64,000 nt of DNA from Hypanus sabinus (lineage: Eukaryota). The notes under the pieces are model-generated. The model was not told where the DNA came from. It saw only the letters and a program-made list of their open reading frames with translations, and made no database searches. Numbering within the stretch: the stretch's first letter is position 1; every line of letters begins with the position of its first letter. Positions 14,205-14,921 of this stretch are shown piece after piece. Where the stretch lies: positions 153,326,001 to 153,390,000 of the forward strand of contig NC_082710.1 in assembly GCF_030144855.1 (NCBI RefSeq), in the 5' to 3' direction. A program made the position numbers and the translations under genes.

Positions 14205-14891
14205 ATGACCGACGCCGCCTCTGTTCATGCGGTTTCGTTGAAACTGCCGGGTTTCTGGACACAGCGCCCGGACCTATGGTTCCAGCAAGCCGAAGCCCAA
14301 TTCCACGTTCGCCGGATCACCTCAGAAGACACCCGCTACTACTACGTGGTGGGCTCCCTCGACCAGGACACAGCTGCCCAGGTCGCGGAGTTCGTACAGT
14401 CGCCCCCGGCAGACGGCAAGTACACGGAATTCAAAGCCCTGCTCCTCAGGACTTTCGGACTCTCACGGCGTGAGCGGGCTGCCCGTTTACTGCACCTGGA
14501 CAGCTTGGGCGACAGACCTCCATCGGCTTTAATGAACGAGATGTTGTCTCTGGCCGAGGGACACACAGGCCTCATGTTTGAGCAGGCATTCCTGGAGCAG
14601 CTGCCCGAGGACATACGCCTGCTGCTGTCCGACGCGGATTTCAGTGACCCCCGGAAGGTGGCAGCCCGGGCGGACTTGCTGTGGAACGCCAAAAAGGTGA
14701 GCGGGGCGCCCATCGCACGGATCTCCCAGCCCCACTCCCGGCAGCAAACCAGTCCAGGCCCGGCCGCAGAGCCCACTAACCCCCGGCCCAATGACCACTG
14801 GTGCTTCTACCACCAGCGGTGGGGCGCAGAAGCCCGCCGTTGCCGCCCGCCCTGCAAGTTCCCGGGAAACGCCAGGGCCAGCCGCCGCTGA
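14205..14891 (+). CDS. gag: Gag protein (228 aa) with CHCC zinc knuckle
   Basis: First ATG at 14205. N-terminus [26 protein letters not shown]-terminus [18 protein letters not shown] = Cx2Hx9Cx3C. Confidence 0.93.
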
Positions 14892-14921
14892 TGGCTACGG
14901 CGGCTGGCCATCGGGATAGCC
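14864..14921 (+). promoter_or_regulatory. -1 programmed ribosomal frameshift signal (slippery heptamer, stem-loop, predicted pseudoknot)
   Basis: G GGA AAC is in gag phase at 14864-14870. After a 5-nt spacer comes the 12-bp stem GGCCAGCCGCCG/CGGCGGCTGGCC; loop GGCTA can pair with TAGCC at 14917-14921. pol is in the -1 frame. Confidence 0.8.

What the first reader, a model, noticed from the sequence alone, without database searches (positions are those of the whole stretch)
14864..14921. Complete -1 frameshift cassette whose loop hides an overlapping stop-start (TGATG)
Seen: the slippery heptamer G_GGA_AAC is in the correct gag phase, followed by a 5-nt spacer and a perfect 12-bp GC-rich stem (14876-14887 with 14898-14909). 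Loop bases GGCTA (14893-97) are complementary to TAGCC (14917-21), giving an H-type pseudoknot. The same 10-nt loop holds the gag stop TGA (14889-91) overlapping a pol-frame ATG (14891-93). Known: GGGAAAC plus a pseudoknot drives -1 frameshifting in SRV-1 and FIV, and stop-start pentamers drive termination-reinitiation in some RNA viruses. Inference: Pol is made as a 1263-aa Gag-Pol fusion, possibly with a second reinitiation route to free Pol from the same 60 nt. I know of no characterisation of this for this clade.
Basis: partly seen in the sequence, partly recalled or inferred. Interest (0 to 1): 0.7.

Follow-up and report, generated by a model that had tools for sequence, protein, structure and literature searches.

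The report
Conserved CsRn1 retrotransposon frameshift pseudoknot
This is the gag-pol junction of a young, very abundant jumping gene (a CsRn1-type LTR retrotransposon): a slippery sequence and an RNA stem, both conserved across dozens of distant relatives, likely make some ribosomes slip back one base to produce the enzyme protein, while the overlapping stop-start codon is missing in most relatives and is probably incidental.

Summary
Every coordinate in the finding is correct. The site is the gag-pol junction of an intact 4.2-kb CsRn1-clade Ty3/gypsy retrotransposon (identical 214-bp LTRs, ATAT target duplication, CHCC knuckle; about 2,000 candidate copies). The -1 frameshift reading is strongly supported: in 89 of 92 metagenome relatives with a locatable protease, pol is in the -1 frame, and 87 of those 89 carry a gag-phase slippery heptamer followed, mostly, by a strong stem with compensatory changes. 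A second stem (pseudoknot) has no statistical support in the window alone but does across relatives (own loop pairs with own downstream better than swapped, shuffled or synonymous controls), with a drifting register. The TGATG reinitiation idea is weak: only 4 of 61 relative families have the overlap, 44 of 62 have no pol-frame ATG before the catalytic Asp, and no calicivirus-type TURBS core is present; it is, however, kept in three families of this genome and slightly above one null. -1 overlapping ORFs in this clade are published; I found no description of the signal itself. A canonical mechanism, a new well-supported member.

The parts
13947..13950 (+). 5' target-site duplication ATAT
   Evidence: same 4 bases at 18165-18168
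13951..14164 (+). 5' LTR, 214 bp, TG...CA
   Evidence: identical to the 3' LTR
14167..14180 (+). primer-binding site, likely tRNA-Trp
   Evidence: sequence; weak Rfam RSV_PBS match 14147-14180, E 0.05, below gathering; tRNA-Trp assignment from recall and from the clade description in PMC2582038
14205..14891 (+). gag ORF, 228 aa, Pfam DUF7041
14802..14855 (+). CHCC zinc knuckle C-x2-H-x9-C-x3-C of Gag (CsRn1 signature)
   Evidence: signature defined in PMC2582038
14864..14870 (+). slippery heptamer G_GGA_AAC in gag phase
   Evidence: conserved in 40 of 62 families, G_GAA_AAC in 13 more
14871..14875 (+). 5-nt spacer (6 nt if the bottom pair of stem 1 is open)
14876..14887 (+). stem 1, 5' arm
14888..14897 (+). 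10-nt loop: gag stop TGA 14889-91, pol-frame ATG 14891-93, stem 2 5' strand GGCTA 14893-97
14898..14909 (+). stem 1, 3' arm
14910..14916 (+). loop 3 of the predicted pseudoknot (7 nt), the most variable part among older copies
   Evidence: 0.24 differences per site against 0.08 in stem 2
14917..14921 (+). stem 2 3' strand TAGCC (predicted)
14870..17995 (+). pol (protease, catalytic Asp codon 14966-68; RT; RNase H; integrase) in the -1 frame, ending 45 nt inside the 3' LTR
17939..17950 (+). G-rich polypurine tract
17951..18164 (+). 3' LTR
18165..18168 (+). 3' target-site duplication ATAT

Best explanation
The 58 nt are the gag-pol junction of a CsRn1-clade Ty3/gypsy retrotransposon and likely act as a canonical programmed -1 frameshift signal, in which ribosomes would pause at a 11-12-bp GC-rich stem (probably a pseudoknot) and a minority would slip back one base on G_GGA_AAC to make a 1263-aa Gag-Pol, while the rest stop six codons later at the TGA in the loop. 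Shown: element anatomy, frames, conservation of heptamer, stem 1 and stop position. Inferred: the slip itself, its rate, stem 2 in this element, and a role of the nearby stop in letting the stimulator refold (by analogy to SARS-CoV-2, PMC8168617). The ATG is most likely a by-product of an A-ending stop followed by the YGG that starts stem 2.
For: Element: identical 214-bp LTRs, 4-bp TSD, CHCC Gag, PR-RT-RH-IN order; 2086 first-look candidates in the genome, 40 of 40 scored 100% identical over the junction. Frame: of 120 metagenome loci found with a heptamer-blind CHCC pattern, 92 had a locatable protease motif and 89 of these have it in the -1 frame (1 in frame, 2 in +1; 24 without motif, 4 too short); 87 of 89 have a gag-phase heptamer. 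After clustering at 75% identity, 62 families incl. the window: GGGAAAC 40, GGAAAAC 13, AAAAAAC 4, TTTAAAC 2, other 3. Stem 1: folding z below -2 in 43 of 62 against 5 of 62 control windows; 10 of 12 pairs show double changes in 22 aligned families, 0 of 500 shuffles as high; within this genome pair 14877-14908 is G-C in 36 and A-T in 14 of 52 older copies. Stem 2: in the 22 families with the same stop position, own loop/own downstream -9.6 kcal/mol against -7.2 swapped (0 of 5000 permutations), -6.5 shuffled (0 of 200), -7.5 synonymous-resampled (0 of 500), -6.4 to -6.9 displaced; holds after dropping 6 near kin (n=16; -8.1 vs -5.9; 0 of 10000). L074 has the window's register with two compensatory pairs. 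Gag homologues end [G/E]N plus 6 residues in most cases.
Against: No translation data. Stem 2 is not significant in the window alone; its register drifts between families and only 55.6% of cells pair in the window's register; the terminal pair 14897-14917 is a mismatch (A-C) in 15 of 52 older copies; a 7-nt loop 3 is below the 8 nt reported as minimum to span an 11-bp stem 1 (PMC7618472 passage). In the other 39 families the stem-2 signal is weaker (-7.2 vs -6.2 to -6.8 displaced). Covariation shuffles do not correct for kinship, and the protease tree is poorly resolved (4 starred branches, quick method, 48 of 62 rows). The ATG is kept in 48 of 52 older copies spanning three deep families and the exact overlap is seen 5 times in 62 against 1.6 expected by local shuffle (p 0.02, window included).
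Confidence: 0.85

Rival explanations
1. The -1 frameshift is stimulated by a plain stem-loop (HIV-1-like); the GGCTA/TAGCC complementarity is coincidental or dispensable.
For: Window-alone stem 2 within chance; MFE folding extends the hairpin into the loop instead; several families (L064, L108, L112, L133) have no convincing stem 2; steric shortfall of loop 3.
Against: Family-level excess of loop-downstream pairing survives swapped, shuffled, synonymous, displaced and thinned controls; stem 2 positions vary less than loop 3 among older copies (0.08 vs 0.24), though codon constraint contributes.
Confidence: 0.3
2. Dual route: besides frameshifting, ribosomes terminating at TGA reinitiate at the overlapping ATG and make a free 1034-aa Pol (SART1-like or TURBS-like coupling).
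For: TGATG/TAATG kept in 48 of 52 older copies over three families; ATG lies 25 codons before the catalytic Asp, so the product would hold the whole protease; exact overlap 5 of 62 vs 1.6 expected (p 0.02); pol-frame ATG within about 20 nt of the stop in 10 of 62 vs 2.6 (protease Met rate, p 2e-4) or 4.3 (linker rate, p 0.01); a TGGGG lies 69 nt upstream; precedent in the non-LTR element SART1, which needs a downstream structure (PMC10275272 passage); some Anopheles CsRn1 elements have separated in-frame ORFs (PMC2582038).
Against: 44 of 62 families have no pol-frame ATG before the catalytic Asp; among the 22 with the same architecture only 3 have the overlap, most read TAG-YGG (GCG/GTG); TG follows A-ending stops (5 of 33) no more often than TAG (4 of 29), Fisher p 1.0; near-stop ATG count is not above a local-composition shuffle (10 vs 7.6, p 0.22); the five carriers are scattered on the tree and the nearest relative lacks the overlap; no TGGGA core 20-85 nt upstream in 0 of 6 carriers, TGGG[AG] 2 of 6 vs 10 of 56. 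Free Pol would lack Gag for packaging (general knowledge, recalled).
Confidence: 0.1
3. The frame offset is a sequencing error or a decay mutation of a single-ORF element.
For: Single-ORF CsRn1 elements exist (PMC2582038), and in-frame copies occur in this genome.
Against: 30 of 30 fetched young copies are identical across the cassette; 89 of 92 distant relatives share the -1 offset.
Confidence: 0.01

Closest known systems
CsRn1 clade of Ty3/gypsy retrotransposons (CsRn1, PwRn1, Anopheles AgCR1-14; PMC2582038, passages read; fish CsRN1 elements PMC11117352, passages)
   Same: CHCC Gag knuckle, 4-bp TSD, likely tRNA-Trp PBS, short LTRs and about 4.2-kb length, -1 overlapped gag/pol (9 of 14 AgCR), existence of single-ORF variants.
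   Different: The papers give ORF arrangement only; the words slippery and pseudoknot do not occur in the main text of PMC2582038 and frameshift not in PMC11117352. Here the signal is resolved and shown conserved.
SRV-1 and FIV G_GGA_AAC frameshift signals (PMC2995055 passages; table in PMC3835772)
   Same: Same heptamer, downstream H-type pseudoknot.
   Different: Their stem 1 is 6-7 bp with a 6-7-nt spacer; here stem 1 is 11-12 bp, spacer 5-6 nt, stem 2 only 4-5 bp, and the gag stop lies in the loop.
Long-stem-1 pseudoknots (IBV minimal pseudoknot; SARS-CoV-2) (PMC7618472 passage; PMC8168617 passages)
   Same: Stem 1 of 11-13 bp, very short loop 3 possible (8 nt), 0-frame stop a few codons after the slip site inside the stimulator.
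   Different: Different heptamer; stop in the loop rather than in stem 1; no third stem.
PEG10 and PNMA3 (domesticated Ty3/gypsy genes) (PMC5009743 passage)
   Same: Ty3/gypsy origin, -1 frameshift at a classical heptamer with an H-type pseudoknot.
   Different: Immobile host genes from other gypsy lineages; sequence of the stimulator not compared here.
Stop-start reinitiation: calicivirus/influenza B TURBS; SART1 UAAUG (PMC2793014, PMC10275272 passages)
   Same: Overlapping stop/start pentamer; a structure downstream (as SART1).
   Different: No UGGGA-type motif 1 core upstream; pentamer absent in most relatives; a frameshift route already reaches the same ORF.

Membership tests
CsRn1 clade (Ty3/gypsy) | Gag knuckle C-x2-H-x9-C-x3-C | tested here: met
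   definition in PMC2582038
CsRn1 clade (Ty3/gypsy) | 4-bp target-site duplication | tested here: met
   ATAT both sides
CsRn1 clade (Ty3/gypsy) | tRNA-Trp primer-binding site | tested here: inconclusive
   TGG-starting PBS 2 nt after the LTR, sub-threshold RSV_PBS match; not compared with a tRNA sequence by a tool
CsRn1 clade (Ty3/gypsy) | Pol order PR-RT-RH-IN, no env | tested here: met
   no room or ORF for env
CsRn1 clade (Ty3/gypsy) | RT tree placement with named CsRn1 references | not tested
   reference sequences not fetched
Canonical -1 PRF signal | X_XXY_YYZ heptamer in the 0-frame phase with downstream ORF in -1 | tested here: met
Canonical -1 PRF signal | 5-9-nt spacer and stable 3' structure | tested here: met
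   range from PMC7618472
Canonical -1 PRF signal | measured -1 product dependent on heptamer and structure | not testable with these tools
   needs reporter or ribosome profiling
H-type pseudoknot stimulator | loop pairs with 3' sequence, conserved or covarying | tested here: inconclusive
   significant across families, not in the window alone, register variable
TURBS termination-reinitiation | stop and start within 20 nt | tested here: met
   TGATG
TURBS termination-reinitiation | 18S h26-complementary motif 1 (UGGGA core; core recalled, UAUGGGAA in PMC2793014) about 26-73 nt upstream | tested here: not met
   no TGGGA 20-85 nt upstream; only TGGGG at -69 and the heptamer's GGGAA at -25
TURBS termination-reinitiation | stop-start conserved in relatives | tested here: not met
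   4 of 61 relative families, 3 of 22 with the same architecture; kept only within this genome's families

The most novel reading that the evidence does not exclude
In the ray lineage of CsRn1 elements one 58-nt RNA element does two jobs: a pseudoknot-stimulated -1 frameshift makes Gag-Pol, and the stop-start in its loop makes a free Pol by SART1-like, structure-dependent reinitiation, the first LTR retroelement with both routes into the same ORF.
Probability: 0.08. Interest if true: 0.75.

Novelty: new member of a known kind. Interest (0 to 1): 0.3.

Why it matters
It supplies a resolved, covariation-backed frameshift signal for a retrotransposon clade spread from flatworms and insects to fishes, for which only the ORF overlap was found in print. 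The natural series (about 60 divergent versions, stop at 0 or +6 codons, stem 2 sliding in register, heptamer-less in-frame lineages) is a ready-made panel to test which features of long-stem stimulators matter and whether a nearby 0-frame stop raises frameshifting outside coronaviruses. It also explains why gene callers split or miss Gag in these elements. The mechanism itself is textbook; only the low-probability reinitiation route would surprise a specialist.

Tried and rejected
Viral contig collection: no relative by protein or by CHCC pattern. Rfam: no frameshift family matched; best hits below gathering. Global folding z of 97 nt not significant. Fixed-register covariation of stem 2 is weak; a register-free test was used instead. 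The window was mis-anchored by two bases and corrected. Protease tree: careful search did not finish, quick tree only, 14 of 62 rows left out as too short; used only to show that ATG carriers are not one clade. Sequencing runs: only contigs, 4 of 18 runs laid; relatives cover the element, but nothing about strand, level, splicing or frameshifting can be read; no joint supports a spliced pol message (five single-contig skips, none with splice ends). Earlier scan findings: none by sequence or words. The 2003 survey of gag-pol recoding signals and the SART1 paper were not held (identifiers partly recalled); I saw them only through review passages. Rejected: sequencing error or decay; TURBS membership; the idea that the loop 'hides' the ATG in a mechanistic sense, since a ribosome terminating at this TGA has already unwound the stem (inference).

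Full report
Observation. All coordinates are right. G_GGA_AAC (14864-70) is in gag phase, followed by 5 nt, a perfect 12-bp stem (14876-87 with 14898-909), a 10-nt loop with TGA (14889-91) overlapping a pol-frame ATG (14891-93), and GGCTA/TAGCC complementarity. Gag is 228 aa, the fusion 1263 aa, a Pol from the loop ATG 1034 aa. Of 574 heptamers on both strands of the window this is the only one with a perfect stem of 10 bp or more behind it.

What it is part of. A 4214-bp LTR retrotransposon at 13951-18164: identical 214-bp LTRs, ATAT duplication, PBS, G-rich PPT, Gag with DUF7041 and a C-x2-H-x9-C-x3-C knuckle, Pol with protease, RT, RNase H, integrase. These are the features given for the CsRn1 clade in PMC2582038 (passages read). 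The family is young and abundant: 2086 first-look candidates, 40 of 40 scored identical over 301 bp. The closest named Gag proteins are from rays and sawfish (93%, 78%, 68%), so the host is likely a batoid (inference).

Frameshift test on relatives. 92 had a locatable protease motif: 89 in the -1 frame, 1 in frame, 2 in +1; 24 had no motif and 4 were too short. 87 of the 89 have a gag-phase heptamer (my filter allowed GGA, GGT, GTT, CCA as XXX). Clustered at 75% identity with the window they give 62 families: GGGAAAC 40, GGAAAAC 13, AAAAAAC 4, TTTAAAC 2, three others. The 50 nt after the heptamer fold at z below -2 in 43 of 62, control windows in 5 of 62; 53 of 62 have a hairpin of -15 kcal/mol or better starting 4-8 nt after it. 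In the 22 families whose stop is at +18 as here, 10 of the 12 stem 1 pairs show changes on both sides and no shuffle of 500 reaches the score (this control ignores kinship); RNAalifold recovers 8 of these pairs unaided. Inside this genome, two further deep families keep the cassette; pair 14877-14908 is G-C in 36 and A-T in 14 of 52 colinear older copies out of 60 fetched. Protein data agree: 48 of 76 Gag sequences with a knuckle have GN within 12 residues after it, 34 of them at offset 3 with six residues to the end, and most others have EN.

Pseudoknot. In the window alone a stem 2 as good arises in 10.6% of shuffles and 23% of synonymous resamplings. Across the 22 families, the best loop-downstream helix averages -9.6 kcal/mol against -7.2 for swapped partners (0 of 5000 permutations), -6.5 shuffled (0 of 200), -7.5 synonymous (0 of 500) and -6.4 to -6.9 for displaced windows; after dropping six near kin and requiring loop 3 of at least 6 nt, -8.1 against -5.9 (0 of 10000). 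L074 has the window's exact register with two compensatory pairs. Against: the register drifts (55.6% paired in the window's register), four families show no convincing stem 2, the signal is weaker in the other 39 families, and 7 nt is one short of the 8 nt reported as the minimum to span an 11-bp stem 1 (PMC7618472 passage). The bottom pair of stem 1 is kept in only 11 of 22 families and the last pair of stem 2 is A-C in 15 of 52 older copies; opening either gives a feasible geometry (inference). I put the pseudoknot at about 65%.

Stop-start. The exact overlap occurs in 5 of 62 families including the window, plus one ATGA; in the same-architecture group 3 of 22, the commonest context being TAG-CGG or TAG-TGG. 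44 of 62 have no pol-frame ATG before the catalytic Asp, so frameshifting is the only general route to Pol. TG follows A-ending stops (5 of 33) as often as TAG (4 of 29; p 1.0). Carriers are scattered on a weak tree and the nearest relative (62% identity) lacks the overlap. No TGGGA lies 20-85 nt upstream in any of 6 carriers; TGGG[AG] 2 of 6 against 10 of 56. In favour: 48 of 52 older copies over three families keep TGATG (33) or TAATG (15), though these share one ancestor; the exact overlap exceeds a local shuffle (5 vs 1.6, p 0.02, window included and selected for it); near-stop ATGs (10 of 62) exceed two Met-rate nulls (p 2e-4, p 0.01) but not the composition-matched one (7.6, p 0.22). The simplest account is that the bases after the stop are constrained to YGG by stem 2, which spells ATG whenever the stop ends in A and Y is T.

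Mechanism. Shown: anatomy and conservation. Inferred from the established -1 PRF model (PMC7618472, PMC2995055 passages): pause at the stimulator, tandem slip of tRNA-Gly and tRNA-Asn, Gag-Pol from a minority of ribosomes, Gag from the rest. The fixed short distance to the stop (55 of 62 within 7 codons) resembles SARS-CoV-2, where moving the 0-frame stop away lowered frameshifting (PMC8168617 passages); untested here.

Known and new. -1 overlapped ORFs in 9 of 14 Anopheles CsRn1 elements are published, and a 2003 survey found pol in -1 with classical heptamers in 28 of 51 animal retroelements (seen only through PMC5009743; the paper itself was not held, and may include this clade). G_GGA_AAC with a pseudoknot is listed for SRV-1 and FIV, with shorter stems. 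Searches found no paper describing a slippery site or stimulator for the CsRn1 clade; figures and image supplements of PMC2582038 were not seen, and subscription journals, Repbase and GyDB pages were not searchable. Verdict: a real, canonical -1 frameshift signal, a new member of a known kind, with useful clade-wide support; the reinitiation twist is unlikely (about 8-10%). Interest 0.3.

Noticed in passing
L037, L051, L052, L057, L058 (own genome); protein P0096: Five of 60 older copies lack the slippery heptamer through a short deletion that puts gag and pol in one frame (two have a later in-frame stop); they form one clade on the gag tree (support 99), and a Hypanus protein shows the same junction: a once-replicating single-ORF or non-autonomous lineage.
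   Followed up: partly
L182, L184, L185, L187, L191, L196 (own genome): Six of 16 copies of a second family carry one extra base in the slippery run, so gag and pol are in frame; they are not clearly one clade (4 changes, 1 not excluded), which may reflect repeated polymerase slippage at the heptamer.
   Followed up: partly
L065, L068, L071, L077, L080 and 9 more families: 14 of 62 families place the gag stop directly after the heptamer, 22 at +6 codons in the loop; 55 of 62 within 7 codons: stop proximity looks conserved across the clade.
   Followed up: partly
13 of 62 families: G_GAA_AAC, a non-canonical XXX variant, is the second commonest heptamer and explains the Gag ending E-N in many homologues.
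   Followed up: no
window 17951-17995: The pol ORF runs 45 nt into the 3' LTR.
   Followed up: no
window 13800-13950 and 18165-18300: The element is inserted into an older interspersed repeat whose halves resume on both sides (LINE/SINE-like by recall; partial match to 29019-29087).
   Followed up: no
protein P0005: A Hypanus sabinus protein annotated as E3 ligase RNF185 isoform contains this Gag (78% identity) with RING domains: exon capture or a gene-model artefact.
   Followed up: no
L073, L106, L137, L140: Some metagenome relatives carry two CHCC knuckles in tandem.
   Followed up: no
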